DNA of 51,012 nucleotides, taken from the sequence record NC_049815.1, one strand, 5' to 3'. A program made the translations under genes and the position numbers. Numbering within the stretch: position 1 is the first letter of the stretch; each line of letters begins with the position of its first letter. Below the pieces are notes generated by a model, which saw only the letters and a list, made by a program, of their open reading frames with translations, was not told the origin of the DNA and made no database searches. The DNA comes from Escherichia phage tonn. This document shows, in pieces, positions 677 to 50,021 of this stretch.

Positions 677-1432
677 TTAACTGTTCCAATCTGGTATGGC
701 CCAACAACGACAACCGAAAGGCTCACCAGGAAAATCATGTTCAGAATCTAGCGCAATGCGCTTACCTTCCCATTGTACATGCTGCAATCGCTCTCTGTCA
801 TCAAGCATACCATGCCAAAAATAATGAGTTACTTTTGAATCATAAAGACGCTGGCGCATGAGTCTACTATTCCAAGCGCCTATGATGTTTTCCGCCCTTG
901 TCTTACCCCAAGAGCTATACACTGCGAACCTCTTACCAGCCAATTCATTAACCTGGCTATCTCTCATTCCGCGAAAGTTTGCCAATCTAATATTGGTTGA
1001 CCAGTCAGACACGATGTTTCCAAATAGCTTTTGAAGAGATGCGATCGTCATGTCATGCCATTGACCGTATAGCGTCCTATACCAACTCTCATTCGCATTG
1101 GCCCCAATAGCCATAAGGATGATAACGGCTGAATTTGACTTGCCTCCCGTTGATTTGGCTACGTTAATAAATTGCTTCGCGTTGAATTTATAAACAGCAA
1201 GACCGATAGCCGGAAGTGATGCGGCGATGCCAGCTATTAGCTTTAACGCGAAGCTACTAATCTCATCCTCTGCGGCGTTGATTTCTTCGGTGTCCGCGTC
1301 AAATTTCATTTCCTTTGTTTTGCTGCGCATCAGCACAACAAGATCCCTTATCGCCTCCTGAATTGAGCGGCGCAATTGCCGCTCGCTTGCTTCAGGAAAG
1401 CGCCATTGTTTAACGACGCCTTTCACTATCAT
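677..1432 (-). CDS. phage head morphogenesis / minor head protein (Mu F / SPP1 gp7-like)
   Basis: 251 aa; position right after portal with ATGA overlap; sequence character of Mu F-like minor head proteins (recognised by eye). Confidence 0.7.
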   Translation of the reverse strand: MIVKGVVKQWRFPEASERQLRRSIQEAIRDLVVLMRSKTKEMKFDADTEEINAAEDEISSFALKLIAGIAASLPAIGLAVYKFNAKQFINVAKSTGGKSNSAVIILMAIGANANESWYRTLYGQWHDMTIASLQKLFGNIVSDWSTNIRLANFRGMRDSQVNELAGKRFAVYSSWGKTRAENIIGAWNSRLMRQRLYDSKVTHYFWHGMLDDRERLQHVQWEGKRIALDSEHDFPGEPFGCRCWAIPDWNS

Positions 1433-2727
1433 TGATTGCTACCCTCTGTTGTTCCTGGCTCCGGCTCTACGTCTTGCTCAGGTAATTTAATGTCATTGCC
1501 GTCTTTTAGTTTAACGTTAGGCGCAATGGCTCGCAATGTGTCGCGCGCCTCTTCTGCATCCATGAATTGACCGTCAATAGCCTTACTCAAAGAATCAATG
1601 TTCTTGTTCAAGATTTCGGCCTGGTCCTTTTCGCTTGGAACGCTTAACGGCGCAAACTGAATGCTCCATTCTTCCTCTTGAATAAGGAACGGGATCAGAA
1701 ATTCAAGGATTGGTTTGTATTCTTCCTTTCGCTTTCGGTCGATCAGCTTGTAGAAGGTTTCAAGCGCCGTGTTTTGGCTCGCGCTAACACCGCCAACGTT
1801 CTTGTTTTTGAGGATGATTTCATGGATGCCGGAAAGAGATACAATGCGATCCATCTTCTTTTCCAAGAACGAATCGACGGCAGAAATATCAGAATTTAAA
1901 ACATCATATTCCTCATCTTCCGCATCAATGCCGATCGCACGGCCTACGCCACCCTCATCATCAACTTGAGCAAGTCGCAAACGTGCGGCACTAACACCAT
2001 CATCATCATCACAAAGATCAGCAAGACCTTTAACTTTCCATACCGCCTGTTGCTTACGTCGCAACAATTGAGTTGCTAAGTTTTCGCAGTAGTTATAATC
2101 ACAAATAGCCTCAACAAGTCTCTTATTCAGGATCGACTCACCCCACCCATCATTTGATTGACGCCGCTGATTTGGTAGCCGCTCACCGTCGATAATACAG
2201 ACTCGCGAATAGTGAACCTGGTATTCTGGCAAGTCGACACCAGGTGAAATGGTGTAAATTAATGGCTCACCATATCTTACCTTGCGTGGATTAGTTTCGC
2301 GCTTTTCTACCCTAACCTGAAAGCGATCGTAAACGCGAACATCTTCAAGGATTGCACCAGGCGCTACAGGTGACTTTAACGACCTGCCATCCTGGACGAT
2401 TGCCACGATTGCAGCGCCACCAAAAAGACGCGACCAGCAAAGCGCATCAATGATTTTATCGTTTAGTCGCTTCTCATCCCACAAAGATCTAAAACTTTCC
2501 TCATCTTCCACGCCATCAATATTAAATCCAGGCGTCACCATTTCTTCTGGAACAACGTCGATGATTCGTTTTGCTAGGCCGTCACGAATGTAAAAATCAG
2601 CGTGCGTGGTGTATTCGAACCCCTGCATAAAGAAAGGCAACTCTACACACCCATTGCCCTTACTACCCTTGAAAATCTCGTTGTATCCATCGGCCTTAAC
2701 TAGCCTTGTTTTTTCGCTCATCGTCAA
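1429..2727 (-). CDS. portal protein
   Basis: 432 aa, acidic C-terminus, located between terminase large subunit and head morphogenesis gene. Confidence 0.8.
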   Translation of the reverse strand: MTMSEKTRLVKADGYNEIFKGSKGNGCVELPFFMQGFEYTTHADFYIRDGLAKRIIDVVPEEMVTPGFNIDGVEDEESFRSLWDEKRLNDKIIDALCWSRLFGGAAIVAIVQDGRSLKSPVAPGAILEDVRVYDRFQVRVEKRETNPRKVRYGEPLIYTISPGVDLPEYQVHYSRVCIIDGERLPNQRRQSNDGWGESILNKRLVEAICDYNYCENLATQLLRRKQQAVWKVKGLADLCDDDDGVSAARLRLAQVDDEGGVGRAIGIDAEDEEYDVLNSDISAVDSFLEKKMDRIVSLSGIHEIILKNKNVGGVSASQNTALETFYKLIDRKRKEEYKPILEFLIPFLIQEEEWSIQFAPLSVPSEKDQAEILNKNIDSLSKAIDGQFMDAEEARDTLRAIAPNVKLKDGNDIKLPEQDVEPEPGTTEGSNQ

Positions 2728-2776: not shown

Positions 2777-2798
2777 TTTTAGCAATTAGTGCTATTTA
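2777..2798 (-). promoter_or_regulatory. variant copy of the 21-bp intergenic motif (AAATAGCACTAATTGCTAAAA), followed by TATAAT
   Basis: motif match; its TAG is the terL stop codon. Confidence 0.45.
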
Positions 2799-4360
2799 TT
2801 GCGTAGACCAGCCAGCTTTTTCATCCTTGCTACCGGATCATCTGCCAAGTTCATTTCGACGTTAACAGCATCAACTATATTATCGACAATATCATCATGG
2901 GGATGAGAATCGTCAAAAGTGAACGCTGCAACCTCTGCCATTATCTCAGGTAACATGGGATGACTTTCTGGCAGTGCCACACGTCCGGCCCTCATTACTG
3001 GCGCGGCGTCCATTGCTCGCGTTACCTTGTCATTGCTTCGCTGAACGGGATTTATATCAATCGGGATCTTCTTTTTGGCCCCCTGAATCAAACCCGTGCC
3101 GCTGGCCTTATCCTCAATGTGGATACGTCGCAAGCTGCCACACTCCTTATTGCGCTTCCAGCACTGATTAACGAAGGCAATAAAATTTAATTCAAGATCC
3201 GGCGCTTCCCACTTTCCGCGAATGCCATCAATGAAGTAAACGCGATTCTTATACATCCCCCAATAACAAAAAACTGAATAGTCGTTAAGCTCTCCGGCCT
3301 TCTGCGCGGTATCACCAGTAATAAATGTGTATTCAAAGCGATCCGGTTTAGGAAGTGCGCATTTTTCGCCGCTGCCGTAATACTGGAACCACTCTGTTTT
3401 AAACACGTTGCCGCCAAGCGCGATGGGTTGCTGTTGGTACTGACTGGCGAACGTATAAGGATCTGCATTGCGCAATGCAAGCAATTCCTCCGCGCTTTCC
3501 TTCGCAGGCCAAAATGAATAATGAGCAACGCCATCTATCATCACTGGCTTACTTGACAACACATCACGATCAAATTCAGGCTTCAACCAATCAGGAAGCG
3601 TTTCGCGGTATTCTTTCGTAACCAGCGCCGGAATACTCACAACTTTAAACTCAATACCACCCATCCCGCCATTAAGCATAAACCAGGTGGAATCATTAAC
3701 GTGTAGTCGCTGTTGCACCATAACAATCGGCGTAGTGTCTTTCATTCGACGCGATCGCACTGTGTTTTTTAACCGCATGTGGATCGCCTCACGCTTGACC
3801 TTAGAAAGCATATCATCCGGCTTGTCTGGATCGTCCAGAACCAGCATACCAGTAAAACCATCGTCCATATAGCCGCCACGCAAACCTGTTACCTGTCCGC
3901 CAATAGAACGTGAGTTAACTTGCAATTTAACCTTGCCGCCATCCGTAACTATGAGATCTTTTGCGCTCGCCTTTGCCAGTTTTCCTGGCCATAGCTCTTG
4001 CCACTCAGGAGAACCGATAATCTCCTTTATCCTGTTGCTGTTTTGCTGGACAAGTCCATCACTAAACGAAAGGTTAAGGTTTCTCACCTTCCGACTTTTC
4101 AATGACGCGTAGGGTGACATGTGGATCGAGAAAATCTCAGTCTTACCGCTACCTGGCGTAATGTTGAAAATCACATTCTGCGACTCTCCATTGATGATCT
4201 TCTCTACCTCACTGCACAATAAGCTAAAATGCCAGTTGCTCTGGAATTTTTGCCCCTGCAATAACTGAAACCAGATTCTGATCATCTTTTCGAATGAATG
4301 CTCACTGATTTCTTTAATGGCTCGCTTTTGCGCCGCCGTCAAATCTTCCCATATGATCAT
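2792..4360 (-). CDS. terL: terminase large subunit
   Basis: 522 aa; Walker A-like NITPGSGKTE near N-terminus, C-terminal RNaseH-like nuclease region with acidic residues; TAATG overlap with upstream terS. Confidence 0.9.
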   Translation of the reverse strand: MIIWEDLTAAQKRAIKEISEHSFEKMIRIWFQLLQGQKFQSNWHFSLLCSEVEKIINGESQNVIFNITPGSGKTEIFSIHMSPYASLKSRKVRNLNLSFSDGLVQQNSNRIKEIIGSPEWQELWPGKLAKASAKDLIVTDGGKVKLQVNSRSIGGQVTGLRGGYMDDGFTGMLVLDDPDKPDDMLSKVKREAIHMRLKNTVRSRRMKDTTPIVMVQQRLHVNDSTWFMLNGGMGGIEFKVVSIPALVTKEYRETLPDWLKPEFDRDVLSSKPVMIDGVAHYSFWPAKESAEELLALRNADPYTFASQYQQQPIALGGNVFKTEWFQYYGSGEKCALPKPDRFEYTFITGDTAQKAGELNDYSVFCYWGMYKNRVYFIDGIRGKWEAPDLELNFIAFVNQCWKRNKECGSLRRIHIEDKASGTGLIQGAKKKIPIDINPVQRSNDKVTRAMDAAPVMRAGRVALPESHPMLPEIMAEVAAFTFDDSHPHDDIVDNIVDAVNVEMNLADDPVARMKKLAGLRNK

Positions 4361-14908: not shown

Positions 14909-15172
14909 ATGAAAATTAATGCACCTATTCCAGTTAAGCGCAAAGCACGTTTGCTCAATAACGGGTGTTACGCCCTGCGGCCTGCATTTAAGGATCGCAC
15001 ATTTCCGGTTATCGTTAACGTGTCTCACGTAAGCCGTAGCGGAAATCTGGTATTCGTTAAAGGTGAAGATCTGGCGGCGCTTGGATTCTATGGCGGTGTT
15101 CACGGCGAACCGCTCGGATTCTGGCTTGTGGATCCGTTAACTGGAGAGCGTGAAATCGAATTCCTGGACTAA
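14909..15172 (+). CDS. hypothetical protein
   Basis: 87 aa, TAAGGAG RBS; stop TAA is first triplet of motif copy. Confidence 0.5.
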   Translation: MKINAPIPVKRKARLLNNGCYALRPAFKDRTFPVIVNVSHVSRSGNLVFVKGEDLAALGFYGGVHGEPLGFWLVDPLTGEREIEFLD

Positions 15173-26671: not shown

Positions 26672-26738
26672 CTTAAACCTTTAAAAAATGCCATTTGGAG
26701 TATATAATAGACTCATTACAATAAACTGTTTTAACAAA

Positions 26739-26758
26739 AAATGCTATGAGGTGACTAG
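26739..26758 (-). promoter_or_regulatory. 21-bp intergenic motif copy (variant) with TATTAT 22 bp downstream; promoter candidate for helicase operon
   Basis: CATAGCATTTTTTGTTAAAA on - strand. Confidence 0.45.
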
Positions 26759-27235
26759 ATGAAAGATGCACGAATTGCAGTTTCTACGGGTGAGATCGAC
26801 AAGCGCACTATTAACGGTAACAACGGAACGCGACGAGGTAAAGACAAAAAGCCACGAAAACACCGAACCGGATTTCTTATCCTGCGAGATGAGGTAAAAG
26901 CAAGCCTGAAATCTCGCCTGGATATTCTGATCGAGTATTATGGCGGTGTTCCTGCTATGGCTCGACGTCTACGCGTATCTCAGCAAGTCGTTAACCAATG
27001 GCGAAAGCGTGGTATGATTTCAGCCGCTGGAGCACAAAAGGTGCATAACGACTACAAATATAATGGATGCAAAGGATACCGCGCATCATTTTGTCGTCCA
27101 GATCTGCGGTTTGATTCTAACGGTAAGCCTCTTACTACCCGTTGCGACAAATACGAGATGTTGCGCGTAGTCAAAAATTCAGACTACGAACCAGGCGGAC
27201 GATTCTACAAAGGTGATAACAGCACAAATAGCTAA
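26759..27235 (+). CDS. Cro/YdaS-like HTH DNA-binding protein (putative regulator)
   Basis: HTH-like segment GGVPAMARRLRVSQQVVNQWRKRG. Confidence 0.5.
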   Translation: MKDARIAVSTGEIDKRTINGNNGTRRGKDKKPRKHRTGFLILRDEVKASLKSRLDILIEYYGGVPAMARRLRVSQQVVNQWRKRGMISAAGAQKVHNDYKYNGCKGYRASFCRPDLRFDSNGKPLTTRCDKYEMLRVVKNSDYEPGGRFYKGDNSTNS

Positions 27236-28236: not shown

Positions 28237-28261
28237 CCCCGCTTATGCGGGGTTTTTTTTT
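28237..28261 (+). terminator. rho-independent terminator after primase gene
   Basis: CCCCGC-ttat-GCGGGG followed by T9. Confidence 0.65.
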
Positions 28262-28326
28262 GCATTTAAAAATGCTATTATCTGAATTGTCATTGGCAAA
28301 AAGTGCTATTTAGGAGGATTTTACAA

Positions 28327-30321
28327 ATGGCGATTTACAGACAAGGCCAAGCGTCTATGGACGCGCAAGGTTATGTAACTGGTTACGGTACAAAATGGCG
28401 TGAGCAATTAACCTTGATTCGCCCAGGTGCAACTATTTTCTTTCTTTCTCAACCTTTGCAAGCTGCTGTGATTACGGAAGTGATTAGCGATACAAGCATT
28501 CGCGCAATTACTACTGGCGGCGCGGTAGTACAGAAGACAAATTACCTGATCTTGCTTCATGACTCGTTAACGGTTGACGGTCTTGCGCAAGACGTAGCGG
28601 AAACGCTGCGTTATTACCAGGGGAAGGAATCGGAGTTTGCTGGATTTATTGAGATCATCAAGGATTTTGATTGGGATAAGCTACAGAAGATCCAGGAAGA
28701 CGTAAAGACAAATGCTGATGCAGCATCAGCAAGCAAGCAGGCAGCTAAAACCAGCGAGAATAACGCGAAGACAAGCGCAACAAATGCAGCGAATAGCGAG
28801 AAAGGTGCTGATACTGCAAAGGCTGCCGCTGAATCCGCGCGCGACGCTGCAAACACTGCAAAGACTGGAGCTGAAACAGCAAAGTCTGGCGCTGAATCCG
28901 CGCGTGACGCTGCGAACACTGCAAAGGCAGGAGCTGAAAGTGCGCGAGATCAAGCGGAGGAATACGCAAAGCAGGCCGCAGAACCTTACAAAGATTTATT
29001 GCAACCGTTGCCGGACGTGTGGATACCGTTTAATGATTCACTTGATATGATAACTGGTTTTGCGCCTGGGTATAAAAAGATAAAAGTTGGTGATGATGTG
29101 ATCAATATGCCGTCAGATAAAGTTGTAAATTTTAAGCGAGCATCAAAGGCGACATACATTAATAAGTCGGGATTTCTTACTGATGCTGACATTGACGAAC
29201 CGCGTTTTGAACGTGAAGGCTTGCTAATTGAGGGGCAGAGAACAAACCTTCTCATAAATAGTACCAATCCTTCAAAATGGAACAAGTCATCAAACATGGT
29301 GTTAAGCCAATCAGGAGTTGATGATTTCGGTTTTTCATTTGGCAAGTTTACATTAAAGCCAGAAATGGTAGGGAAAACATCGGCTATTAACATAGTTACA
29401 GTATCTGCTAATAAGGGTTTTGATGTTACTGGTGAAGAAAAAAGAGTAACAATCTCATGCAGAGTCAAGGGTGGTGAAGGAAACATAAGATGCAGACTTA
29501 AATTTGAAAGTTATAATGATAGCGGATATACCTTTCTAGGTGGTGCTTATCTCGGTCTTGAGGATTTGTCAATAGAAAAAACCGGCGGCGCTGCAAACAG
29601 GATAACAGCAAGAGCGGTAATGGATGAGTCAAGCAAATGGATATTTTTTGAGGCTACGATCACAGCATTAGAACAGGAAAGCATGATTGGTGCAATGGTG
29701 CAATATGCCCCGCGAAAAGGAGGAAGCACAGAAGTTGATGATTACATATACATCTCAACACCTCAATTGGAAGGTGGTGCGTGCTCGTCGTCATTTATCG
29801 TCACAGAGGGAACTCCTGCGACAAGGGCTAGTGACTTAGTTAATGTCGTGTCATTTAATAATTTAATATCTCACCCGCTTAGTTTTTTGCTTGAGGTAAA
29901 TAAAACATGGACTACCTTACCAAATTCATCGCCGAGGATATGGGATATTGGTGCGCCTGATGTTGGCGAGTCAATGGTATGCTCAATAAGAAGCGATAAA
30001 CATTCAACATACTGGAATATTGCTAGATATGGCGAGTCACCAACCGTATACATTTCCACTGAAATAAAGAATAATTATGATTCTGCTCAGGGAGCAATAA
30101 CAGTTGGCGGAGTATACGACGGGAGTTATGCGTATATCTTTTCAAATTCCGTAAAAGGGAACAAAGCAGAGGTTAAGCATGGTTTTAAGCCAACAACCAG
30201 TAAGATAATAAGATTCGGTGGCGCAGGATCTGATGGTGCTCGTCACTTTTTCGGACACTTAAGAAACTTCCGCATATGGCACAAGACACTAACAGATCAC
30301 CAAATGGGGGAAATTGTATAA
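28327..30321 (+). CDS. tail fibre protein
   Basis: ATG 28327 with AGGAGG RBS; Ala-rich 21-aa tandem repeats typical of fibre shafts; C-terminal beta-rich domain. Confidence 0.8.
   Translation: MAIYRQGQASMDAQGYVTGYGTKWREQLTLIRPGATIFFLSQPLQAAVITEVISDTSIRAITTGGAVVQKTNYLILLHDSLTVDGLAQDVAETLRYYQGKESEFAGFIEIIKDFDWDKLQKIQEDVKTNADAASASKQAAKTSENNAKTSATNAANSEKGADTAKAAAESARDAANTAKTGAETAKSGAESARDAANTAKAGAESARDQAEEYAKQAAEPYKDLLQPLPDVWIPFNDSLDMITGFAPGYKKIKVGDDVINMPSDKVVNFKRASKATYINKSGFLTDADIDEPRFEREGLLIEGQRTNLLINSTNPSKWNKSSNMVLSQSGVDDFGFSFGKFTLKPEMVGKTSAINIVTVSANKGFDVTGEEKRVTISCRVKGGEGNIRCRLKFESYNDSGYTFLGGAYLGLEDLSIEKTGGAANRITARAVMDESSKWIFFEATITALEQESMIGAMVQYAPRKGGSTEVDDYIYISTPQLEGGACSSSFIVTEGTPATRASDLVNVVSFNNLISHPLSFLLEVNKTWTTLPNSSPRIWDIGAPDVGESMVCSIRSDKHSTYWNIARYGESPTVYISTEIKNNYDSAQGAITVGGVYDGSYAYIFSNSVKGNKAEVKHGFKPTTSKIIRFGGAGSDGARHFFGHLRNFRIWHKTLTDHQMGEIV
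28828..28953 (+). repeat. two tandem 63-bp direct repeats inside the tail fibre gene
   Basis: GCTGAATCCGCGCG(C/T)GACGCTGC(A/G)AACACTGCAAAG... repeated at 28828 and 28891. Confidence 0.7.
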
Positions 30322-34035: not shown

Positions 34036-34280
34036 CGCCGGATTATATACATACACATGAATGATGGCACATACAGATACTCAGAAAGAAAAATCACCAC
34101 AAACAACCAAAACCACAAGAAACGCAGATAACAAGAAAAAACAAATATACATACATAAATAAATAAACTATTGATTTTATATGTATATATCTATTTTATT
34201 GATTGTTTATTGATCTTATGTTGTCTAAATTTTGCGCTAAATTTACGCCGTCTTAAATTCGATAACACCGGAAAACAAAA
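34036..34280. repeat. AT-rich noncoding element, copy B (homologous to 13420..13630)
   Basis: same ordered sequence blocks as copy A, same orientation. Confidence 0.55.
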
Positions 34281-35527: not shown

Positions 35528-35555
35528 AATTAAAGGGGGCTATGCCCCCTTTTTT
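35527..35555. terminator. bidirectional rho-independent terminator
   Basis: GGGGGC-tat-GCCCCC flanked by A-rich and T6. Confidence 0.6.
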
Positions 35556-38500
35556 ACCAGCTTCCGGTAATCCTTCCGACTTCAACCCTCAATACTCCGT
35601 TTGCATCTTTTACCTTCAATCCCTCATTGGTGAATTTAGTAGCTCCTTCTCCTGGCGTTGATCCGTAATTCTCAAAGATTCCGTTTTTATCAAGCCTCCA
35701 TCCTTGCTGGTTTTGAACAAAGTTGTTTGACTGAATCACATTACCAATCATGGCATTAGTGATTGAACCGTTCTTCACCAAAAGACTATTAATGAAAACC
35801 TGATTATTCTCAACCACGAAAGGCAAAGTAAAAGTCCCTCCAGTAGAGCTAGTCATAATGGCGAACCTGTTAGCATCAAACAAAATTTGCGAGATAAGGC
35901 CGGATGAACCCTGCGAAAGCTGCATCACCATTCCTGCGCTGTATTGCTGGCCTTTGTAAGTAAGGCCAAGTTTCATAGCGTATTTAGCGCCAACTGAATC
36001 AACGCTCGCCCAAGAATCCAACTTTTCAACCAATGCAGATTCAACGTCGCCAAATCGTGCTGTTAATGCCTGGTCAGCCTGAACCCTTGCCTCTGTCTCA
36101 TTGGCGATCGCCTGTTTCACTTCTGAGATGTTAGCCTCGACTTCTGTTTTGATAACTCCGTCAAGGTCGTTTATCTCTTTCGTGAACTTAGCGTCAAGCT
36201 GCTGAACGGCCTGAGCGCGCGCTTCTGACTCGTTAGTGATTGTCTGCCTTACATCGCTAATGCTTGCAGAAGTATCCTTGCGCACGCCGTCGATTTCTTT
36301 TGTGAATTTAGAATCAAGCTGCTGAATTTGAGTCGCTCGCGTCTCTGATTCAGTGGCAATTGCCTCCTGCACTGTCTTGATGCTTGATGTTATCTCGCCA
36401 TCAATTGATGCCCTTAACTCTTCGATTTGAGTTACGCGCGCTTCTGTTTCATTGGCGATAAGCTCAAGAGCATGACCATATTCAGCCTTGCGCTTTCCGT
36501 TTTGCACTCGCGTCCACTTCACATCTGCATCATTTGCCAACGCGTTCTGTATGATTGATTGTGCCTGGTCTTTGATTTTATTGGCGCTGTCTATGGCGTT
36601 CTCTTTGATTTCTTGACCAGCTTCTGTATCAAAAATCTTGTCCAGAATGTCGCCCAAAACAGATTCAACATCATCTGACGCCATACCGCGAACAAAGTCA
36701 GTCCAACTGGAAACGTTGCCTATTCTGTCAACGCTGCGGATTCTATACCATACAACTTGCCCCGCTGGTAACGTGCTATGCCAATACTCATATTGAGGAT
36801 ATGGAATCAGCGTAAGCAGACTTGAGTTTTCAACCGTTCCGTCTGGCGATTGGTGAAGCTCAATGTAAGCCGTATCGCCTGATCCTTCCGGCATACCCCA
36901 TTTGACACGAATGCCAAAAACTTCATTATCAGAAGCCGTAAGATTAATCGGCGCTCCTGGCTCGCCAACTTTACCTGTCAGAGTGGCGGTTGCAATCTTT
37001 GACCACGGGGAAGCGTTACCGCTTGCAGAAACGGATCTCACCCTTACTTGGTAGTTGCCAGAGTAAATCCCTTCTACCTCTATCTCTTTGTTAGCGGTCT
37101 GCGGCGTATTCAGCCAGTTACCATCACCTTTTCGCCACTGCATTTCATAAAGCGATGCGTAAGGAACCTTATCCCATGAAACAACCATAGTCTCAACGCT
37201 AACACCCTGCACGACGCGAGAATAAGATGAGATCTTAACGTTCTCAGGCGCTGCCATCACGTCAGGCTGAACAATTGAAATCGGTCTGTCATCAATGTTT
37301 ACTCCATAATCAATCTCGTCGTATTTGTTCGGATCGTACTCTACAGCCGTGATTGAATAGGTAAACTCGTTTTCGTCATCACCCTTGCTGATGGTTGTCA
37401 CAACGTATTGCTGCAACGCAAGATCAGTACGGTCAATCGCAAAAACAGTATCAGGCTTAACATCAAAACCAAATCCAATATTTAACTCAATGGTTTTTCC
37501 GTCTGCGCTAACCTTTGAGATCGTGCGCTTAACTGGCTTGCCGTCCGGCTTGTTGATGATAATAAAATCACCAGGGCGAGCATCAACCTTAAACGGAACG
37601 AAAACCTGCAATCCTGAAACTTCCATCACTCGGCCCGATAGGTTTAACGTTAGGTTGCTGCTCTGAAAATTATCAGCGATAGCAATCACATCACCTATTG
37701 ATGGAATCATCCCCTCTAGTCCGGTAGCAAAGTTTACAGTAGTGCTTCTAAGGTTTGTTTTCAAAACCCACCGACCGCGACGATTCGCTTCGCTCCTGCG
37801 TGTACAACCGATCGCTGTAATGCTTGTTGGATTGTATCCAAATCGTAATGCAGCCTCAGTATCAAAAACCCCCTCTACGTCCTGCTGATACATGTTTTGT
37901 TCGTCGTCAAACGTCACGTTACACTGCGTGTACATGCTTTTTTCGCTTGCGTTTGTGTACTGAAAATCACCGTTGATGACGTTTTCATTAGTAAACACGT
38001 ATGATGGATCGCGCGGCTTATCAATCACGATTGATAAGCTCTCACCATTCCAAAAACTCATTCCGCGAAAGATTGAGCAAATGTCACGGATTAGCTGATA
38101 AGCCTCAACTTGATTCTGAATCACCACATCGCATAGGTAGCGAGGCTCTGTACCACCCTTGCCGTCTGGAACTTTCTGATCACAGTAAACGCCCGCCTCG
38201 TATAAGCTCCACTTGTCGATCTGTATTCCTAACTCTCGCTGATCAAGTCCGTAACGCTGATTTGTCACCAGATCATAAAGAACCCAAGCCGGATTATTTG
38301 ACCACGCTTTTTTAAAAGTCCCATCCCATGACCCGTGATATTCTCTTGATATTGGATCATAGTTGCTTGGCACATTAATAATCTTCCATTTCTTTTTTAT
38401 AGAAATGTTAGGGATTTGCGTAGGAAACAATTCGCTGTCAAATTCTACGAATACAAGGCCAGTCAGAGGATAACGGAATTTTGCATCAACAACCTCAGCG

Positions 38501-39132
38501 TAACTTTGCAGCTTGATTTTATCAGTCACCTTTGAAGATGTGCTGTCTGGAGTCAGTCGCTTTACTCGGATTAAAACGCGCTCATCAAACTTAGGAAGAT
38601 CAATCCTTCTGCTGCGGTCGTATCCTGATCTTGTCTTGCCGTCAATTACATCTCTCATAACCTCGCTATAAGAACCGCCATCAATAGCCATATCTACGGC
38701 ATACTCAACCCTTACGCCAACAAGATCGCCGTTATCCTCCTGTTTTATGCCAACTGGCATCAGAATCTTGATTCTTATTGCAGAAAGATTTTTGTTTGTC
38801 ACAGAGATAATATAGGGATTGTCTGTTGTAATGTCTCGCGAAACTGTCACCTCGCTTGATGTGTCAGTAAACCCCTGGATGTAATCTTGCGTCTGTGTGC
38901 CTGGTCTATATTCAGCCGTAACTCCCTCGTAGTTAACAGTGCCATCGCTGGCAATAACCGGAACATCATCAAGATAAAGATCGCGCAACGTGAAATCTGG
39001 ATCGCACTCGCCATCAGATACAGCCAGCAAAACTTTAATCTTGTTTATCGAGATCAGGTTATCTTCCATCTCTTTTGGCACGTATGGCTTTTTGCTTCCG
39101 CCCTTACTGCCGCTTATCATATATTTAGCCAT
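35554..39132 (-). CDS. tail tip / host specificity protein (lambda J-like)
   Basis: ~1192 aa from ATG 39132; last gene of M-L-K-I-J-type tail tip cluster. Confidence 0.85.
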   Translation of the reverse strand: MAKYMISGSKGGSKKPYVPKEMEDNLISINKIKVLLAVSDGECDPDFTLRDLYLDDVPVIASDGTVNYEGVTAEYRPGTQTQDYIQGFTDTSSEVTVSRDITTDNPYIISVTNKNLSAIRIKILMPVGIKQEDNGDLVGVRVEYAVDMAIDGGSYSEVMRDVIDGKTRSGYDRSRRIDLPKFDERVLIRVKRLTPDSTSSKVTDKIKLQSYAEVVDAKFRYPLTGLVFVEFDSELFPTQIPNISIKKKWKIINVPSNYDPISREYHGSWDGTFKKAWSNNPAWVLYDLVTNQRYGLDQRELGIQIDKWSLYEAGVYCDQKVPDGKGGTEPRYLCDVVIQNQVEAYQLIRDICSIFRGMSFWNGESLSIVIDKPRDPSYVFTNENVINGDFQYTNASEKSMYTQCNVTFDDEQNMYQQDVEGVFDTEAALRFGYNPTSITAIGCTRRSEANRRGRWVLKTNLRSTTVNFATGLEGMIPSIGDVIAIADNFQSSNLTLNLSGRVMEVSGLQVFVPFKVDARPGDFIIINKPDGKPVKRTISKVSADGKTIELNIGFGFDVKPDTVFAIDRTDLALQQYVVTTISKGDDENEFTYSITAVEYDPNKYDEIDYGVNIDDRPISIVQPDVMAAPENVKISSYSRVVQGVSVETMVVSWDKVPYASLYEMQWRKGDGNWLNTPQTANKEIEVEGIYSGNYQVRVRSVSASGNASPWSKIATATLTGKVGEPGAPINLTASDNEVFGIRVKWGMPEGSGDTAYIELHQSPDGTVENSSLLTLIPYPQYEYWHSTLPAGQVVWYRIRSVDRIGNVSSWTDFVRGMASDDVESVLGDILDKIFDTEAGQEIKENAIDSANKIKDQAQSIIQNALANDADVKWTRVQNGKRKAEYGHALELIANETEARVTQIEELRASIDGEITSSIKTVQEAIATESETRATQIQQLDSKFTKEIDGVRKDTSASISDVRQTITNESEARAQAVQQLDAKFTKEINDLDGVIKTEVEANISEVKQAIANETEARVQADQALTARFGDVESALVEKLDSWASVDSVGAKYAMKLGLTYKGQQYSAGMVMQLSQGSSGLISQILFDANRFAIMTSSTGGTFTLPFVVENNQVFINSLLVKNGSITNAMIGNVIQSNNFVQNQQGWRLDKNGIFENYGSTPGEGATKFTNEGLKVKDANGVLRVEVGRITGSW

Positions 39133-39424
39133 GACTTTTAACCTTTTGTGCTGTTTCTTGGTTTGCACATTATAAATGCACAAAAAAACCAGCGCAATGC
39201 TGGTTAAATCTACTTTCCGTGGTTTATGTGGAATTTGTTTAAAACTTCAATCTCTATCATCTTTTCTGCCGCTTCCTGCCTCACTTCCTTTCTTTATCCT
39301 TCTTCCTACGTCTACAGCCCAAAATAACTTACCGTCATTATAATAAAAAATATCACGCCACATGATCACATCCTTAATTAATTGTAAAGCGAAAATCCGT
39401 TTTCGCTTTAACATATTGTGCTAT

Positions 39425-44630: not shown

Positions 44631-45265
44631 TTATGTTTTGTTTGAATGAATCATTTCTAGCGCCTTTTGTTCCATGATGCGCAAATCATTTAGCGCCATC
44701 TCCCGATCCTCAATCTTGTAAATGTCAAAAAGCATAGGCAAAACGTTATAGTCGAACCCATACACACTGCCGCTAGTCGATCTCCATTGCGTCTGCATAG
44801 CGCAAAACAGATCCCAAGATTGAAACATTGATTCATCAAAAATTACCTCCGGCGGCTCCTCCCCTTCGTAGTCTGAACGGGATAGGCCGACGGCCTCTAA
44901 TTGTGCGTCAGTTGGCGGCTTGAGGTAAAACAGGTAAACCGCCCGCTTTAGTTTTTTACCCGCTGCCCCGCAAGTGCTTTCATATAATGACCAGTCAGCG
45001 ATAATGACGCAGACGGGTAATAATCCAGCAATTTAGCAACGTTTTCCTCGTTAAATTCATCTTCCAGATCCCAACCGGAAGCAAGGAAGGTGATCATTTC
45101 TACGTCGCTCATCGGCTTTTCTGCCGTGTATCGTTCGTGAATTTCGCTTGCCTTCTTGTGGCGCACGGTAAAAACAATAACTTGCTCATCACCATTTGGA
45201 AGCACGAAAGAAACAGGCAGCTTAAAATCAGGCAGTGGGCCTAACGTTAGTTTCATCTTTGCCAT
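44631..45265 (-). CDS. tail assembly chaperone GT-like fusion made by -1 programmed frameshift
   Basis: -1 frame after A_AAA_AAC continues open for ~106 codons to stop at 44631 (manually translated ...KLKRAVYLFYLKPPTDAQLEAVGLSRSDYEGEEPPEVIFDESMFQSWD...). Confidence 0.5.
44948..45265 (-). CDS. tail assembly chaperone (lambda G-like)
   Basis: 105 aa ORF directly upstream of tape measure gene; ends at slippery site. Confidence 0.7.
   Translation of the reverse strand: MAKMKLTLGPLPDFKLPVSFVLPNGDEQVIVFTVRHKKASEIHERYTAEKPMSDVEMITFLASGWDLEDEFNEENVAKLLDYYPSASLSLTGHYMKALAGQRVKN
44951..44957 (-). other. slippery heptamer A AAA AAC (programmed -1 ribosomal frameshift site)
   Basis: codons GTA AAA AAC TAA at end of the G-like ORF; X_XXY_YYZ pattern. 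Confidence 0.55.
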
Positions 45266-45277
45266 CTTAAGATCTCC

Positions 45278-45298
45278 TTATAGCACTTTTTGTTAAAA
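45278..45298 (+). promoter_or_regulatory. 21-bp motif copy in antisense orientation within the tail module
   Basis: TTATAGCACTTTTTGTTAAAA on + strand while flanking genes are on - strand. Confidence 0.35.
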
Positions 45299-45337
45299 GT
45301 GGAATTAATTTATTTGATAGATTGATTTTACAGGAAT

Positions 45338-45366
45338 GAAAAAAGGGGCGCAACGCCCCTTGTTTT
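45338..45366. terminator. rho-independent terminator immediately after major tail protein gene
   Basis: GGGGCG-caa-CGCCCC flanked by A7 and TTGTTTT. Confidence 0.6.
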
Positions 45367-46027
45367 ACTTAACGTCGGAAGGTAAGAACGTGAATCGGCC
45401 TTTCAGAGATACAGAAAGGGAAACAGTTTCCATTTCGTTCATAGTTGTTTGCGGAATGTCATTAAAAGACAATACGCCAGCCCAGCAACGCATCTCTTTA
45501 GCTTTCGGCACGTACATACGCAAAGCGGTTACGTCGCCGGATTCCTCAGCCTCGCGCAAGATCGGATAAATCGGATTATCATATTCATGCGCGAAAGTAT
45601 AGGTAAGAGAAACGGCGCTCTTGTAGGTCGGCAACTGCTGTTCCTGGTCATCAGCCAAACACTGATAAGTGTAATACTGTTGCTCGCCGCCGTCCTGCGC
45701 AAGATCCTGTACGCAAGGAACCTCTACCCAAGATTTCACCTCTCGGAAAGTTGCTGTATTAGAACCAGCCGGAAATACGTTTTGATCGATTGTGTCTACA
45801 CCTTCAAGAGTTACGCTTGCGTTATCAGATACTTCTTTTACCCGCAACACACGACTAACCAGTTTACCCCAGGAAGACGTTTCAATCAGAACATAAGCAC
45901 CTTTTTTGATCTGCTGTGAATTACTAACAGTAAAAACCGGATCTTTAGCGTTTGAAATATCAGTAGCGCTAATTGGCTCACCCATATTAACGCCGATGAA
46001 AATTTGAGAACCATTAGGCAAGTGCAT
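45365..46027 (-). CDS. major tail protein
   Basis: 220 aa; upstream of G/GT chaperone and followed by terminator, the usual arrangement for the abundant tail tube protein. Confidence 0.65.
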   Translation of the reverse strand: MHLPNGSQIFIGVNMGEPISATDISNAKDPVFTVSNSQQIKKGAYVLIETSSWGKLVSRVLRVKEVSDNASVTLEGVDTIDQNVFPAGSNTATFREVKSWVEVPCVQDLAQDGGEQQYYTYQCLADDQEQQLPTYKSAVSLTYTFAHEYDNPIYPILREAEESGDVTALRMYVPKAKEMRCWAGVLSFNDIPQTTMNEMETVSLSVSLKGRFTFLPSDVK

Positions 46028-48516: not shown

Positions 48517-49491
48517 TTAACTTGATTTTTTCAAGCCAGTAATAAGCACTAGCGTAAACGGACGGTAAATCGTCAGGCCAGTACATTTTGAAGTGCAGGG
48601 AACTTTGAAATGCAGATCTTTTGGTTGCGCCGGAAGCATGTTAAATGCTTCTGGAATTTCGATCGACATGTTCATCGGGTCTTTCTCATATACCAGACAG
48701 CCTTTCGTTCCTGTGCCGTCAATATCCTCAAGCTCTGCGATCGAGTCAATGGCGATTCCGCTGTTTTGTTTCTGGAAGTATTCCAGATAACTTTCAGTGG
48801 TGTTTTCCATTCGAACGGAAAGAACCTTGCGCATAGACGGCGGAATCAGGATATTGGTTGCGCGGTGCTGACCATTGGTAATGGTCTGAATGGTTTCAAT
48901 AGCCTTTTCCAGTTCATCAGATGCCGCCTGTGGGAACTTGGTGTTTTCATCAGCGCTTAACCAGCCAGCTGACGTAATTTTTGTCAGGTTAGGATGTTCA
49001 AACACCGAAAGAATCTTATGCGGCTTTGAACCCTTAAACACCAGGCGGTTAACTTCCTGATCATGAGCGTTTTGCGCTGCGTTTGCCTTGCGAGTGGAAA
49101 GGCTCTTACCAGTACGCTGACCAGACTTGATTTCGTCAATTGAGATCAAGAACGCGTTACCCAAGCGGAAAACTTTACCGAATTCGCTAGACATCAGCGC
49201 GTCAACGGTCGGCAGGTCGTCGGTGTAATCAGCGATAATTTTTGCGTAACCAACTTTGTCAAACATCTGATATTCAAAAGTCTTATCAGTATCAGAAAGC
49301 TCATTAGTTACAGGGAATACACGAAGCGCAGAACCTGCCGGATATTCTTTCTCGTAAGCATCAGAGCGAATCTTATGCAGTTCTTTAGCGGCCCAAATAC
49401 CCATGTCGTACGCATCACCTTTAACGCCGCGAGTAGCCAGATAGCTAGAAACAATATCCGCATCTAGCTGATCAAATTTTTCTTTTTCCAT
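48517..49491 (-). CDS. major capsid protein
   Basis: 325 aa from ATG 49491 (GGAGGAAGAAA RBS); position after two small head genes; followed by terminator. Confidence 0.65.
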   Translation of the reverse strand: MEKEKFDQLDADIVSSYLATRGVKGDAYDMGIWAAKELHKIRSDAYEKEYPAGSALRVFPVTNELSDTDKTFEYQMFDKVGYAKIIADYTDDLPTVDALMSSEFGKVFRLGNAFLISIDEIKSGQRTGKSLSTRKANAAQNAHDQEVNRLVFKGSKPHKILSVFEHPNLTKITSAGWLSADENTKFPQAASDELEKAIETIQTITNGQHRATNILIPPSMRKVLSVRMENTTESYLEYFQKQNSGIAIDSIAELEDIDGTGTKGCLVYEKDPMNMSIEIPEAFNMLPAQPKDLHFKVPCTSKCTGLTIYRPFTLVLITGLKKSS

Positions 49492-49536
49492 TTTCTTCCT
49501 CCATATATAAAGGCTGTTAGTATGTAACGCCACAAT

Positions 49537-49555
49537 GATAGCATTTTTTGTTAAA
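49537..49555 (+). promoter_or_regulatory. degenerate 21-bp motif copy in antisense orientation upstream of major capsid gene
   Basis: GATAGCATTTTTTGTTAAA on + strand. Confidence 0.3.
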
Positions 49556-49574
49556 CGTGCAACATAATTTTGTG

Positions 49575-50021
49575 TTATGCGTTAATGCTTACCCCGACAA
49601 TATATGAATCATGATCAACCTTTACATGTTCGCCAGTAAAGATCCAACCAATCAGCAAGTCGCCTTCACTGTATGCTGCATCTCCATCTTGCGTTACAAA
49701 TACTTTGTCTCCATATTCTGGCGCTTCGCTCTCAGAAGTTAAGCACCACACAATACCTCGACTAACAACACTAACTGGATCGCCATCCTCATATATGCAC
49801 GAGCCCAGCGGCCTTACTGCCACGCCAATAACAAGATCCCCATTAATACTGGCTATTTTGTATCCATTTGTTATATGTGATAGTCGAACAATCTTACCTG
49901 GCGCAATAAATTCATCTCCGCACACGAAAGAACCGTTAATCACCATTATTGAAGAATCGACCATGCACCCTGGCGACTCAGCGCCAACAATGACTGAATA
50001 ATCACTCATAAGAAACTCCAA
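49575..50021 (-). CDS. head structural protein (paralog of 50056..50568; decoration-like?)
   Basis: shares GVAV, G.VW.L..E..AP.(F/Y)G.K and W(I)(A/F)TG blocks with upstream gene. Confidence 0.5.
   Translation of the reverse strand: MEFLMSDYSVIVGAESPGCMVDSSIMVINGSFVCGDEFIAPGKIVRLSHITNGYKIASINGDLVIGVAVRPLGSCIYEDGDPVSVVSRGIVWCLTSESEAPEYGDKVFVTQDGDAAYSEGDLLIGWIFTGEHVKVDHDSYIVGVSINA

What the first reader, a model, noticed from the sequence alone, without database searches (positions are those of the whole stretch)
45278..45366. Antisense-oriented motif copies inside the structural module
Two motif copies (45278..45298 and a degenerate one at 49537..49555) are on the + strand although all surrounding genes are on the - strand. 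The first is followed 40 bp later by the strong bidirectional terminator after the major tail gene, so if it is a promoter it would make only a very short antisense RNA. Alternatively the motif is a protein-binding site that works in either orientation, or these are decayed remnants.
Basis: seen in the sequence. Interest (0 to 1): 0.35.

Follow-up and report, generated by a model that had tools for sequence, protein, structure and literature searches.

The report
Inverted promoter repeats facing late promoters
Two backwards-pointing copies of the repeated promoter motif of T1-like phages are real, are conserved across several genera, and sit on top of the ordinary promoters of the tail-chaperone and major-capsid genes, so they most likely act as brakes on those late genes and are neither debris nor small-RNA genes.

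Summary
The window is a T1-like phage (Warwickvirus, 99.8% identical to swan01 over the 1.3 kb compared). The motif is the published 21-nt 'direct repeat' (DR) of phage TLS, whose function is unknown. It has 19 copies here against 0.3 expected.

In this window and in T1, a -10-like hexamer lies exactly 19 nt after the DR in about 75% of copies. The background rate is 2% per position. The DR is therefore the upstream half of a promoter.

The copy at 45280(+) keeps the whole unit: DR, 19 nt, then TAGATT. It is conserved in 12 phages of at least four genera. The DR is invariant and the spacer length is fixed, although the spacer sequence has diverged to 39% identity. It points head-on into a conserved sense promoter (TTGCGC-N17-TAAAAT) that restarts transcription after the major-tail terminator. 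The same face-to-face design links the regulator and helicase promoters at 26680-26747.

The copy at 49538(+) has no antisense -10. Its reverse complement forms the spacer and the TGnTAT of a conserved extended -10 promoter for the capsid gene.

Best reading: occlusion or interference with late promoters (confidence 0.42, inferred). Decayed remnants are rejected. A functional short RNA is unlikely, because the + strand T-tract exists only in this lineage.

The parts
45278..45298 (+). Inverted copy of the T1-family 21-nt direct repeat (ttATAGCACTTTTTGTTAAAA). Its first bases overlap the Shine-Dalgarno sequence (AAGGAG, 45279->45274) of the tail assembly chaperone gene on the - strand.
   Evidence: Identical in 10 of 12 related phages and changed by 1 nt in the other two.
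45299..45317 (+). 19-nt spacer between the DR and the antisense -10. Its length is fixed and its sequence is free.
   Evidence: Length is 19 in all 12 phages. Mean pairwise identity is 39%.
45318..45323 (+). Antisense -10-like hexamer TAGATT. The predicted + strand start is near 45330.
   Evidence: Offset 19 is the offset used by 14 of 19 window copies and 15 of 20 T1 copies. The pattern T-A-n-n-(A/T)-T is kept in 11 of 12 phages.
45325..45330 (-). Sense-strand -10 TAAAAT of the promoter that restarts transcription for the chaperone and tape-measure genes. The predicted - strand start is near 45318.
   Evidence: TA(A/C/G/T)(A/T)AT in 10 of 10 phages with a comparable junction, including the four without the DR. 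TA(A/G/C)AAT in 12 of 12. Almost all of the variation is at hexamer position 3.
45348..45353 (-). -35-like TTGCGC, formed by the loop and descending stem of the terminator, 17 nt upstream of the sense -10.
   Evidence: TTGCGC, TTGCAC or TTGCGT at 16-17 nt in 10 of 10 phages. It matches only 3 of 6 consensus positions, so the simple scan did not list it.
45343..45361 (.). Terminator hairpin after the major tail protein gene (stop codon 45365-45367). There is a T-run on the - strand at 45337-45342, and TTGTTTT on the + strand at 45360-45366.
   Evidence: The + strand T-tract is absent in T1, pSf-1, BubbaBully and BHUENT2.
49538..49556 (+). Inverted DR copy ATAGCATTTTTTGTTAAAC. On the - strand it forms the 16-nt spacer and the TGC-TAT of an extended -10.
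   Evidence: Present in window, swan01, morffagbaw, pSf-1, Sazh, TLS (listed there as DR7), Klebsiella K50, phi2013, T1 and KMI8.
49535..49543 (-). Extended -10 TGCTATCAT of the major capsid gene promoter. The predicted start is near 49528.
   Evidence: TATCAT, TATTAT or TATATT with TG upstream in all 10 phages, and TATAAT in ECH1.
49557..49562 (-). -35 hexamer TTGCAC of the capsid gene promoter, 16 nt upstream of the -10.
   Evidence: TTGCAC, TTGACG, TTGAAC, TTGACC or TTGCGT at 16-17 nt in 11 phages (read from the printed sense strands).
49512..49531 (-). Hairpin followed by TTTATAT, beginning 3 nt after the -10. It is followed by the SD GGAGG (49502->49498) and the capsid gene ATG at 49491. 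The equivalent hairpin in TLS is listed as terminator T35.
   Evidence: TLS Table S1.
28258..28309 (-). Third inverted site, before the + strand tail-fibre gene. It holds a degenerate DR (28291-28309), which abuts the SD, and a DR-like TGCTATTAT upstream of it.
   Evidence: An inverted DR at the same place in T1 (34902+) and Rtp (33762+).
26680..26747 (.). Reference architecture. The sigma70 promoter of the Cro-like regulator gene (+, TTTAAA-17-TATAAT, -10 at 26703-26708) lies face-to-face with the DR-dependent helicase promoter (-, DR 26747->26729, -10 26709->26704).
   Evidence: The same arrangement occurs in T1 and TLS, where it is P57 with DR11.

Best explanation
Both sites are functional, selected copies of the Drexlerviridae DR element. 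The DR is the upstream half of the phage's own promoter class: DR, 19 nt, then TAnnnT. Here it is placed backwards, on top of ordinary sigma70-type late promoters, where it works as a negative element.

At 45280 the whole promoter unit is present. It points head-on at the promoter (TTGCGC-N17-TAAAAT) that restarts transcription for the tail chaperone and tape-measure genes after the major-tail terminator. The two -10 hexamers are 1 nt apart, and the two predicted starts (about 45330 on + and about 45318 on -) lie inside each other's footprint. RNA polymerase engaged at one promoter therefore excludes the other. In addition, the sense transcript has to pass through the occupied DR, which lies immediately before its ribosome-binding site. 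In this phage the antisense polymerase runs straight into the terminator hairpin, so the roughly 38-nt RNA is a by-product.

At 49538 there is no antisense -10. The DR instead fills the spacer and supplies the TGnTAT of the capsid promoter, so whatever reads the DR occludes that promoter directly.

Shown: the sequences, the geometry and their conservation. Inferred: that these promoters fire, that they interfere with each other, and what reads the DR (host polymerase alone, or polymerase with the phage's Cro-like regulator).
For: 1. The DR is a promoter element. A hexamer with A at position 2, T at position 6 and at least 4 of 6 consensus matches lies at offset 19 in 14 of 19 window copies and 15 of 20 T1 copies. 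The background rate is 2.1% per position.
2. The 45280 copy has TAGATT at offset 19. Across 12 phages of Warwick-, Henuseptima-, Hanriver- and Tunavirus plus BHUENT2, the DR is invariant, the spacer is always 19 nt, and the hexamer is T-A-n-n-(A/T)-T in 11 of 12. The spacer sequence itself is only 39% identical.
3. The sense promoter is kept whether or not the DR is present. The -10 varies almost only at position 3 (A, C, G or T), and TTGCGC-like sits at 16-17 nt, in 10 of 10 phages.
4. In BEBK14 a 4-nt deletion keeps both hexamers by making them overlap (TAGATTCTA).
5. The same face-to-face pairing of a canonical promoter with a DR promoter occurs at the regulator/helicase junction in the window, T1 and TLS (TLS P57 and DR11). 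There the second promoter has an obvious job.
6. At the capsid site, -35 TTGnnn, 16 nt, then TGnTAT(C/T/A)(A/T)T is conserved in 10 phages. The 'spacer' is kept DR-identical, which a spacer alone would not require.
7. A third inverted DR lies just downstream of a sigma70-type promoter before the tail-fibre gene in the window and T1, and an inverted DR abuts the tail-fibre gene start in Rtp.
Against: - There are no transcript or binding data for any T1-like phage in the searchable literature. Every promoter here is predicted.
- The sense promoter's -35 matches only TTG. Neither promoter of the pair at 45318-45353 passed the simple consensus scan.
- DR promoters also drive the lysis cassette (34289+) and a tail gene (39406-). 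The class is therefore not purely early, and a simple 'early on, late off' timer is not established.
- TLS, Sazh, Klebsiella K50 and KMI8 manage without the DR at the chaperone junction, so the brake is dispensable.
- The T and A of the antisense hexamer could be conserved partly because they form the start region of the sense promoter.
- The phages compared share ancestry, so the counts are not independent trials.
Confidence: 0.42

Rival explanations
1. The DR is simply the operator of a DNA-binding protein, most plausibly the Cro-like regulator encoded at 26759-27235. It works in either orientation as a roadblock or occluder next to ribosome-binding sites and promoters. On this view antisense transcription is irrelevant.
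For: - Late-region DR copies without a -10 at offset 19 exist in both orientations: 49538(+), 28291(-), 2777(-), T1 8362(+), and a weak DR-like copy at 39136(-).
- Several abut a Shine-Dalgarno sequence or a start codon.
- The regulator gene itself is preceded by a DR, which would give autoregulation.
- The protein has an HTH of the Cro/YdaS type, with sub-threshold Pfam hits, and matches PHROG 2856 'transcriptional regulator' at 1.6e-72.
- The TLS authors suggested a stoperator-like role.
Against: - The DR is not a palindrome, whereas Cro-type dimers usually need one.
- At the chaperone site the 19-nt spacing and the TAnnnT hexamer are conserved, which a plain operator would not need.
- Regulator and DR occur together in every subfamily checked (T1, TLS, Rtp and the window), so co-occurrence does not discriminate.
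Confidence: 0.25
2. The 45280 promoter exists to make a regulatory antisense RNA. This would be either the roughly 38-nt hairpin RNA seen in this phage or a longer RNA complementary to the 3' end of the major tail protein mRNA. It would act like lambda OOP RNA does on cII, or as an Hfq-type small RNA.
For: - There is a complete promoter unit with a conserved -10.
- The RNA would carry an A-rich 5' tail, a stable hairpin and a U-run.
- There is a sub-threshold Rfam match to the sRNA family STnc50 on the + strand at 45288-45372: 33.8 bits against a gathering score of 55.
Against: - The + strand T-tract is confined to this lineage, so the length and the 3' end of the RNA are not conserved.
- Every conserved base of the transcribed stretch is already explained by the sense -10, the sense T-run and the hairpin. 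That stretch is equally conserved in phages that lack the antisense promoter.
- The + strand ORF that starts at 45336 is not conserved, because Hanrivervirus has no ATG there.
- The Rfam hit is below threshold and is dominated by the terminator.
- The 49538 copy has no -10 and could not make an RNA.
Confidence: 0.12
3. The copies are by-products of genome mosaicism. On this view they are promoter cassettes left behind in the wrong orientation by recombination, or short homology patches that serve as module boundaries, with no regulatory role.
For: - DR cassettes flank small or mobile genes. Rtp has sense copies before the HNH genes rtp20 and rtp40 and before the inserted gene rtp34 at this very junction.
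- The DR plus spacer behaves as a discrete insertion or deletion of about 35 bp between lineages.
- The cassettes resemble the PeSL cassettes of T4-type phages (PMC2839356, listed; what PeSLs are is from my own knowledge).
Against: - Sequence conservation is perfect, and position and orientation are fixed, across subfamilies, while the flanks have diverged.
- The spacer length is conserved.
- The capsid-site copy is integrated into a promoter whose -35 and -10 co-vary as expected for a working promoter.
Confidence: 0.08
4. The reverse complement acts at the RNA level. UUUUAACAAAAAGUGCUAU would be an unstructured A/U-rich leader immediately upstream of the Shine-Dalgarno sequence that boosts translation.
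For: The reverse-complemented DR abuts the SD of the chaperone gene (45279), the tail-fibre gene (28310) and the regulator gene (26749).
Against: - At the capsid site the element lies upstream of the predicted start, and a hairpin separates it from the SD by about 30 nt.
- Four lineages translate the chaperone without it.
- A translational enhancer would not need 19 of 19 identity to a promoter repeat, nor a fixed distance to a hexamer on the other strand.
Confidence: 0.05

Closest known systems
21-nt direct repeats DR1-DR18 of phage TLS (PMC11447400; also reported there, as unpublished observations, for T1, Rtp and Rogue1)
   Same: Same sequence family, with consensus aaATAGCACnnnTTGnTAAAA. 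The TLS table even lists the capsid-site copy as DR7 on the 'neg' strand at 15044..15024.
   Different: The paper states that all repeats lie in the direction of transcription, about 76 nt upstream of start codons, and it leaves the function open (stoperator, enhancer or UP element). The two copies here are inverted and have no gene downstream. The chaperone-site copy does not exist in TLS. The fixed 19-nt distance to a -10 is not described there.
Convergent, overlapping ('face-to-face') promoters that cause transcriptional interference, such as pR/pL of coliphage 186 (own knowledge, not checked here)
   Same: Two promoters on opposite strands whose polymerase footprints overlap or collide, so that activity of one lowers the other.
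   Different: Here the antisense partner has no gene and, in this phage, terminates after about 38 nt. The -10 elements are adjacent, so occlusion would dominate over collision. No functional data exist.
Lambda OOP RNA (own knowledge)
   Same: A short antisense transcript made from its own promoter, ending at a terminator, and complementary to the 3' end of a neighbouring mRNA.
   Different: The 3' end and length are not conserved among relatives. No sequence constraint is attributable to the RNA.
Mycobacteriophage L5 stoperators (PMC1170222, as cited by the TLS paper; the details below are from my own knowledge)
   Same: Many copies of a short asymmetric site in intergenic regions, mostly in one orientation relative to transcription.
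   Different: L5 is temperate and its repressor is known. These phages are virulent and no binding protein is known. Most DR copies are tied to a -10 at a fixed distance, which makes them promoters and not stops.
PeSL (promoter-early stem-loop) cassettes of T4-type phages (PMC2839356, listed; the description is from my own knowledge)
   Same: A repeated promoter plus stem-loop cassette that flanks small and mobile genes. Several DR copies carry a hairpin in or around the 19-nt spacer.
   Different: Different sequence and phage family. A role for DRs in recombination is untested.
T4 MotA-dependent middle promoters and class II activator sites (own knowledge)
   Same: A specific box replaces the -35 and is combined with a normal sigma70 -10. 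The 21-nt DR would be centred near -42.
   Different: No activator has been identified. The DR may be read by host polymerase alone.

Membership tests
Drexlerviridae 21-nt direct repeat (TLS DR family) | Matches the consensus aaATAGCACnnnTTGnTAAAA | tested here: met
   45280: 0 core mismatches. 49538: 2 core mismatches. Consensus taken.
Drexlerviridae 21-nt direct repeat (TLS DR family) | Intergenic location | tested here: met
   45266-45364 lies between the chaperone and major tail genes. 49492-49574 lies between the capsid and decoration genes.
Drexlerviridae 21-nt direct repeat (TLS DR family) | Oriented in the direction of transcription, about 76 nt upstream of a start codon | tested here: not met
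   Both copies are on the + strand among - strand genes. There is no conserved + strand ORF downstream.
DR-class promoter (as defined here: DR, 19 +/- 1 nt, then TAnnnT) | -10-like hexamer (A at position 2, T at position 6, at least 4 of 6 matches) at offset 18-20 after the DR | tested here: met
   45280 has TAGATT at offset 19. 49538 has TATGCG there, so this feature is NOT met for that copy.
Canonical sigma70 promoter (antisense direction at 45280) | -35 hexamer resembling TTGACA, 16-18 nt upstream of the -10 | tested here: not met
   The bases 16-18 nt upstream of the -10 hexamer are AAAGTG, AAAAGT and TAAAAG. The DR's own TTG lies 22 nt from the -10. The site is not listed by the scan.
Canonical sigma70 promoter (sense direction, capsid gene, 49535-49562) | -35 TTGnnn, 16-18 nt spacer, -10 TAnnnT, optional TG extension | tested here: met
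   TTGCAC-16-TGC-TATCAT. The pattern is conserved in 11 phages. The -35 matches only 3 of 6 in the window but 5 of 6 in T1, swan01 and KMI8.
Bidirectional intrinsic terminator | G+C-rich hairpin with a T-run on both strands | tested here: met
   One search lists 45343-45361 on both strands. Energy -15.6 kcal/mol. The + strand T-run is not conserved in other genera.
Rfam sRNA family STnc50 (RF02059) | Score at or above the family's gathering threshold | tested here: not met
   33.8 bits against 55.
L5-type stoperator | Bound by a phage repressor that blocks elongating polymerase in an orientation-dependent way | not testable with these tools
   This needs binding and transcription assays. Only a candidate HTH protein was identified.
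Convergent-promoter transcriptional interference module | Two active promoters on opposite strands with overlapping footprints, where activity of one reduces the other | tested here: inconclusive
   The geometry is met: the -10 hexamers are at 45318-45323(+) and 45330-45325(-), and both are conserved. Activity and interference cannot be tested in silico.

The most novel reading that the evidence does not exclude
T1-like phages use one short asymmetric element as a two-way switch. Read forwards, it is the promoter of most non-structural genes. Placed backwards on the promoters of the capsid, tail-chaperone/tape-measure and tail-fibre genes, and on the regulator's own promoter, it shuts them while the first class is engaged. 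That would give a hard-wired timer and stoichiometry control for late genes without a phage sigma factor or RNA polymerase. This would be the first mechanistic account of temporal control in the least understood of the classical T phages. It would also explain why the TLS authors' in silico search found only three canonical sigma70-like promoters in TLS.
Probability: 0.25. Interest if true: 0.6.

Novelty: new variant of a known kind. Interest (0 to 1): 0.4.

Why it matters
T1-type phages are common laboratory contaminants and phage-therapy candidates. How they time their genes is still unknown, and the TLS reannotation of 2024 found only three canonical promoters and left the 21-nt repeats unexplained.

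This work shows two things. The repeat sits at a rigid 19 nt from a -10 hexamer. Its few inverted copies are conserved and overlap ordinary late promoters.

Together these turn a vague 'repeat of unknown function' into a specific, cheaply testable model. The tests are one 5'-end mapping experiment and a few point mutants.

If the model is wrong, the result is still useful for annotation. Promoters of the capsid, chaperone and regulator genes can now be placed in about 200 deposited genomes in which nothing is annotated at these sites.

Tried and rejected
- **Sigma54 promoter.** The DR contains TAGCAC...TTG, but the spacing is 2 nt shorter than the invariant GG-N10-GC, and a sigma70-type -10 follows. 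Rejected by inspection.
- **CRP, FNR or IHF sites.** No convincing match by eye. A loose resemblance to the degenerate Lrp consensus was recalled from memory and was not tested.
- **The DR's TTGnTA as a normal -35.** It lies 22 nt from the -10, which is too far.
- **A protein-coding gene on the + strand.** The ORF 45336..45569 (77 aa) is not conserved. T1 has only 21 codons and Hanrivervirus has no ATG.
- **Rfam.** Only sub-threshold hits driven by the terminator. A BLAST of the STnc50 consensus against E. coli genomes found nothing. The only paper that mentions STnc50 gives no location.
- **Literature on transcription starts or transcriptomes of T1-like phages.** None found. The T1 genome paper is not held.
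- **Weak DR copies (3-4 mismatches).** These occur at chance level, except 28291 and 39136.
- **Co-occurrence of the regulator and the DR across subfamilies.** Both are present everywhere I looked, so the comparison says nothing either way.
Full report
**1. What the window is**

A 1.3-kb stretch around the finding is 99.8-99.9% identical to Escherichia phages EC195, EC125 and swan01. Swan01 is a Warwickvirus (Drexlerviridae, Tempevirinae), that is, a T1-like virulent siphophage.

In swan01 every gene from the tail protein to the head protease lies on the - strand of the window orientation. ORF 45365..46027(-) is the major tail protein. ORF 44948..45265(-) is a tail assembly chaperone (Pfam Phage_TAC_4, 5e-31). 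ORF 49575..50021(-) is a minor capsid or cement protein. The capsid gene starts at the ATG at 49491, preceded by GGAGG, and not at the GTG at 49533 that the ORF lister gives.

**2.

- ATAGCAYTTTTTGTTAAA has 19 matches at up to 3 mismatches, against 0.30 expected; none of 100 shuffles reaches 19.
- The copy at 45280-45298(+) is a perfect 19-mer. The copy at 49538-49556(+) has two core mismatches.
- The hairpin at 45343-45361 is scored as terminator-like on both strands and folds at -15.6 kcal/mol.

**3. The motif is already in the literature, without a function**

The 2024 reannotation of phage TLS describes 18 intergenic copies of a 21-nt 'direct repeat' with consensus aaATAGCACnnnTTGnTAAAA. 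The paper says they lie in the direction of transcription, about 76 nt upstream of start codons. [quoted passage not shown] It proposes stoperators, enhancer sites or UP elements as possible roles (PMC11447400).

Its Table S1 nevertheless lists DR7 on the 'neg' strand at 15044..15024, inside the + strand head genes. That is the TLS counterpart of the window's 49538 copy. The inverted orientation therefore went unremarked.

I found no transcript mapping for any T1-like phage.

**4. The repeat is half of a promoter**

I printed every copy with its downstream sequence and scored hexamers at each offset.

| Genome | Copies with a -10-like hexamer at exactly 19 nt | Copies with one at 18 or 20 nt |
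|---|---|---|
| Window | 14 of 19 | 3 |
| T1 | 15 of 20 | 1 |

A -10-like hexamer here means A at position 2, T at position 6 and at least 4 of 6 matches to TATAAT. Such hexamers occur at 2.1% of random positions.

There is no TTGACA-like hexamer 16-18 nt upstream of these -10s, and the repeat's own TTG is 22 nt away. The repeat therefore replaces the -35 and does not act as one. With the -10 at -12 to -7, the 21-mer spans about -52 to -32.

Whether host polymerase reads the repeat alone or with a phage factor cannot be decided here. The phage encodes a conserved Cro-like HTH protein at 26759..27235. Its Pfam hits to YdaS and P22_Cro are sub-threshold, and it matches PHROG 2856 'transcriptional regulator' at 1.6e-72.

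**5. The 45280 copy is a complete promoter unit, conserved, and aimed backwards**

After the repeat come 19 nt and then TAGATT (45318-45323). This predicts a + strand start near 45330.

In a first alignment of 11 phages, the inverted repeat is present at this junction in the window, morffagbaw, pSf-1, phi2013, T1 and BHUENT2. It is cleanly absent, as an indel of about 35 bp, in TLS, Sazh, Klebsiella K50 and KMI8.

A second alignment of 12 repeat-bearing phages covers Warwickvirus, Henuseptimavirus, Hanrivervirus, Tunavirus and BHUENT2. It shows:

- The repeat is identical in 10 phages and changed by 1 nt in the other two.
- The spacer is 19 nt in all.
- The hexamer is T-A-n-n-(A/T)-T in 11 of 12. 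The exception is slyngel, with TTTCAT.

The mean pairwise identity is 100% for the repeat, 39% for the spacer and 72% for the hexamer. A BLAST of the 107-nt intergenic region finds 236 phage records. By my estimate from the query ranges in the 40 rows shown, roughly 190 of them cover the repeat. Nothing is annotated in the intergenic stretch in any listed record. This conservation rules out decayed remnants.

**6. What the 45280 copy faces**

On the - strand, all ten phages with a comparable junction carry TA(A/C/G/T)(A/T)AT, whether or not they have the repeat. In the window this is TAAAAT at 45330->45325. It lies 16-17 nt downstream of TTGCGC, TTGCAC or TTGCGT, which is formed by the loop and descending stem of the terminator (45353->45348).

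Almost all variation falls at hexamer position 3, where all four bases occur (position 4 is A or T), while T1, A2, A5 and T6 never change. That is how a working -10 evolves. I read this as a sigma70-type promoter that restarts transcription for the chaperone and tape-measure genes after the terminator. Its -35 is weak, at 3 of 6, and the simple scan did not list it.

The predicted start of this promoter (about 45318) lies in the antisense -10, and the antisense start (about 45330) lies in the sense -10. The two hexamers are 1 nt apart. In BEBK14 a 4-nt deletion keeps both hexamers by overlapping them, as TAGATTCTA. The sense transcript then has to cross the repeat (45298->45280), which runs into its Shine-Dalgarno sequence (45279->45274).

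**7. The same design occurs where its purpose is clear**

At 26680-26747 the regulator gene has a good sigma70 promoter on the + strand: TTTAAA-17-TATAAT, 10 of 12 matches, with the -10 at 26703-26708.

The helicase gene on the - strand has a repeat-dependent promoter: repeat at 26747->26729 and -10 TATTAT at 26709->26704. The two -10s overlap, and the regulator's mRNA must read through the repeat, which again abuts its SD.

T1 has the same arrangement, with TTGAAT-17-TATAAT facing repeat-19-TATTAT. So does TLS, with P57 TTGACT-17-TATCAT facing DR11-18-TATGAT.

The chaperone junction is this module without a gene on the far side. That is why I favour interference over an RNA product.

**8. The short RNA is probably incidental**

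The + strand T-tract (TTGTTTT) exists only in the window's lineage. BEBK14, BubbaBully, Hanrivervirus, Tunavirus and BHUENT2 have no run of T there. In those phages antisense transcripts would run into the major tail gene.

Every conserved base between 45324 and 45361 is explained by the sense -10, the sense T-run and the hairpin. That stretch is equally conserved in phages without the antisense promoter.

The + strand ORF at 45336 is not conserved. Rfam gives only a sub-threshold match, to STnc50 at 33.8 bits against 55.

**9. The 49538 copy is different**

At offset 19 it has TATGCG. T1, swan01 and morffagbaw have TATACA, TATTCA and TAGTGC. None of these has T at position 6, so it is not an antisense promoter.

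It is nevertheless the more widely conserved of the two copies, present in 10 of 11 phages across Tunavirinae, Tempevirinae, a Klebsiella phage and KMI8.

Read on the - strand, all ten give the same plan:

- a -35 of TTGCAC, TTGACG, TTGAAC or TTGACC;
- a 16-17-nt spacer that is the reverse complement of the repeat;
- TGC (TGCT in Klebsiella K50);
- a -10 of TATCAT, TATTAT or TATATT.

ECH1, where the repeat has decayed, still has TTGCGT-16-GTG-TATAAT.

In ordinary forward copies the three bases 5' of ATAGCAC vary, and the reverse complement rarely ends in T. The T at hexamer position 6 is therefore specific to this site.

This is a capsid-gene promoter whose spacer is held identical to the repeat. 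A spacer needs no such conservation, so something else must read it.

A hairpin with a T-run (49531->49512, listed as 'T35' in TLS) begins 3 nt after the -10. The predicted start near 49528 falls inside its ascending stem. Transcripts that start here would escape a terminator that stops read-through from upstream. This step is inference.

**10. Other late-region copies fit the same pattern**

- **Tail-fibre gene.** Before the + strand tail-fibre gene the window has terminator, TGCTATTAT, 17 nt, reversed repeat, then GGAGG. T1 has TTGCAA-17-TAAAAT followed at once by the reversed repeat and the SD. Rtp keeps an inverted copy there too.
- **Rtp.** At the major-tail junction Rtp has a forward copy that drives an inserted gene, rtp34.
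- **Copies without a -10 at offset 19.** These include window 2777(-), between the stop codon of ORF 2792..4360 and its terminator, and T1 8362(+), directly before terS.

**11. Limits**

- Everything above is sequence and comparison. No promoter has been shown to fire.
- Repeat promoters also precede the lysis cassette (34289+) and a tail gene (39406-). I therefore cannot call the class 'early', and the timer idea remains a hypothesis.
- Four lineages lack the chaperone-site copy.
- The phages share ancestry, so the counts overstate independence.

**12. Verdict**

- 'Decayed remnants' is rejected.
- 'Promoter making a very short RNA' is right about the promoter and probably wrong about the point of it.
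- 'Orientation-independent binding site' remains viable, especially for 49538.
- Most likely, these are inverted copies of the family's promoter element that sit on late sigma70 promoters and damp or gate them (confidence 0.42).
- The element is known. The inverted, promoter-overlapping arrangement and the 19-nt geometry are new but modest findings, and they are readily testable.

Noticed in passing
window 26680-26760: The promoter of the Cro-like regulator gene (TTTAAA-17-TATAAT, + strand) and the repeat-dependent helicase promoter (- strand) are face-to-face with overlapping -10 hexamers. The regulator mRNA must read through the repeat. The arrangement is conserved in T1 and TLS and looks like an autoregulatory switch.
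   Followed up: yes
window 28236-28330: Before the tail-fibre gene lie a terminator, then a repeat-like TGCTATTAT (an extended -10 on the sense strand), then a second, degenerate reversed repeat that abuts GGAGG. The scan tool also reports an antisense TTGCCA-16-TAGCAT here (28299->28272).
   Followed up: partly
window 2720-2800: A forward repeat copy begins right at the stop codon of ORF 2792..4360 (probably large terminase). It is followed after 5 nt by a perfect TATAAT and, 3 nt later, by a strong terminator hairpin and then the start of ORF 1429..2727. A promoter-like unit that runs straight into a terminator mirrors the capsid-site layout.
   Followed up: partly
window 39118-39136: A weak repeat copy (ACAGCACAAAAGGTTAAAA) sits 3 nt before the ATG of the large tail protein gene 35554..39183, and its AAAAGG serves as the SD. 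It is the counterpart of TLS DR8.
   Followed up: no
window 12444-12524, 23108-23188, 19925-19987, 13866-13927: Whole cassettes of 60-80 nt are repeated at 64-87% identity. Each has the repeat, a G+C-rich hairpin in or around the 19-nt spacer, the -10, and a conserved leader (CATCGAAACGA...GAGGAAA). In other copies the -10 sits in the hairpin loop. They look like compact stop-and-restart units and resemble the PeSL cassettes of T4-type phages.
   Followed up: partly
window 45288-45372 (+): Sub-threshold Rfam match to the Salmonella sRNA family STnc50 over the full model (33.8 bits, gathering score 55). The match is probably driven by the terminator. I could not find where STnc50 lies in its host genomes.
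   Followed up: partly
TLS terminators listed in Table S1 of PMC11447400; window 45348-45353: Several late-region terminators of TLS have TTGCG in the loop (T28, T42, T49, T54). This is the same sequence that serves as the -35 at the chaperone junction. Terminator-embedded -35 elements may be a general design of the late 'transcriptons' in this family.
   Followed up: no
window 49476-49600 compared with L001 10176-10295 and L005 9277-9398: The capsid-upstream region of the window is nearly identical to that of Shigella phage pSf-1 (Hanrivervirus) and differs from swan01, although the tail region is 99.8% swan01-like. Swan01 also carries a different, larger gene upstream of the capsid gene. The head and tail modules therefore have different nearest relatives (mosaicism).
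   Followed up: no
window 28799-28949: In-frame tandem repeats of 63 nt (86% identical), with a 21-nt substructure, lie inside the tail-fibre gene 28303..30321.
   Followed up: no
window 13417-13567 and 34126-34211, 34878-34911: Very A+T-rich stretches with ATATATA-type direct and inverted repeats shared between two distant places, both near strand-switch regions. Their function is unknown; an origin or a packaging-related site are guesses.
   Followed up: no
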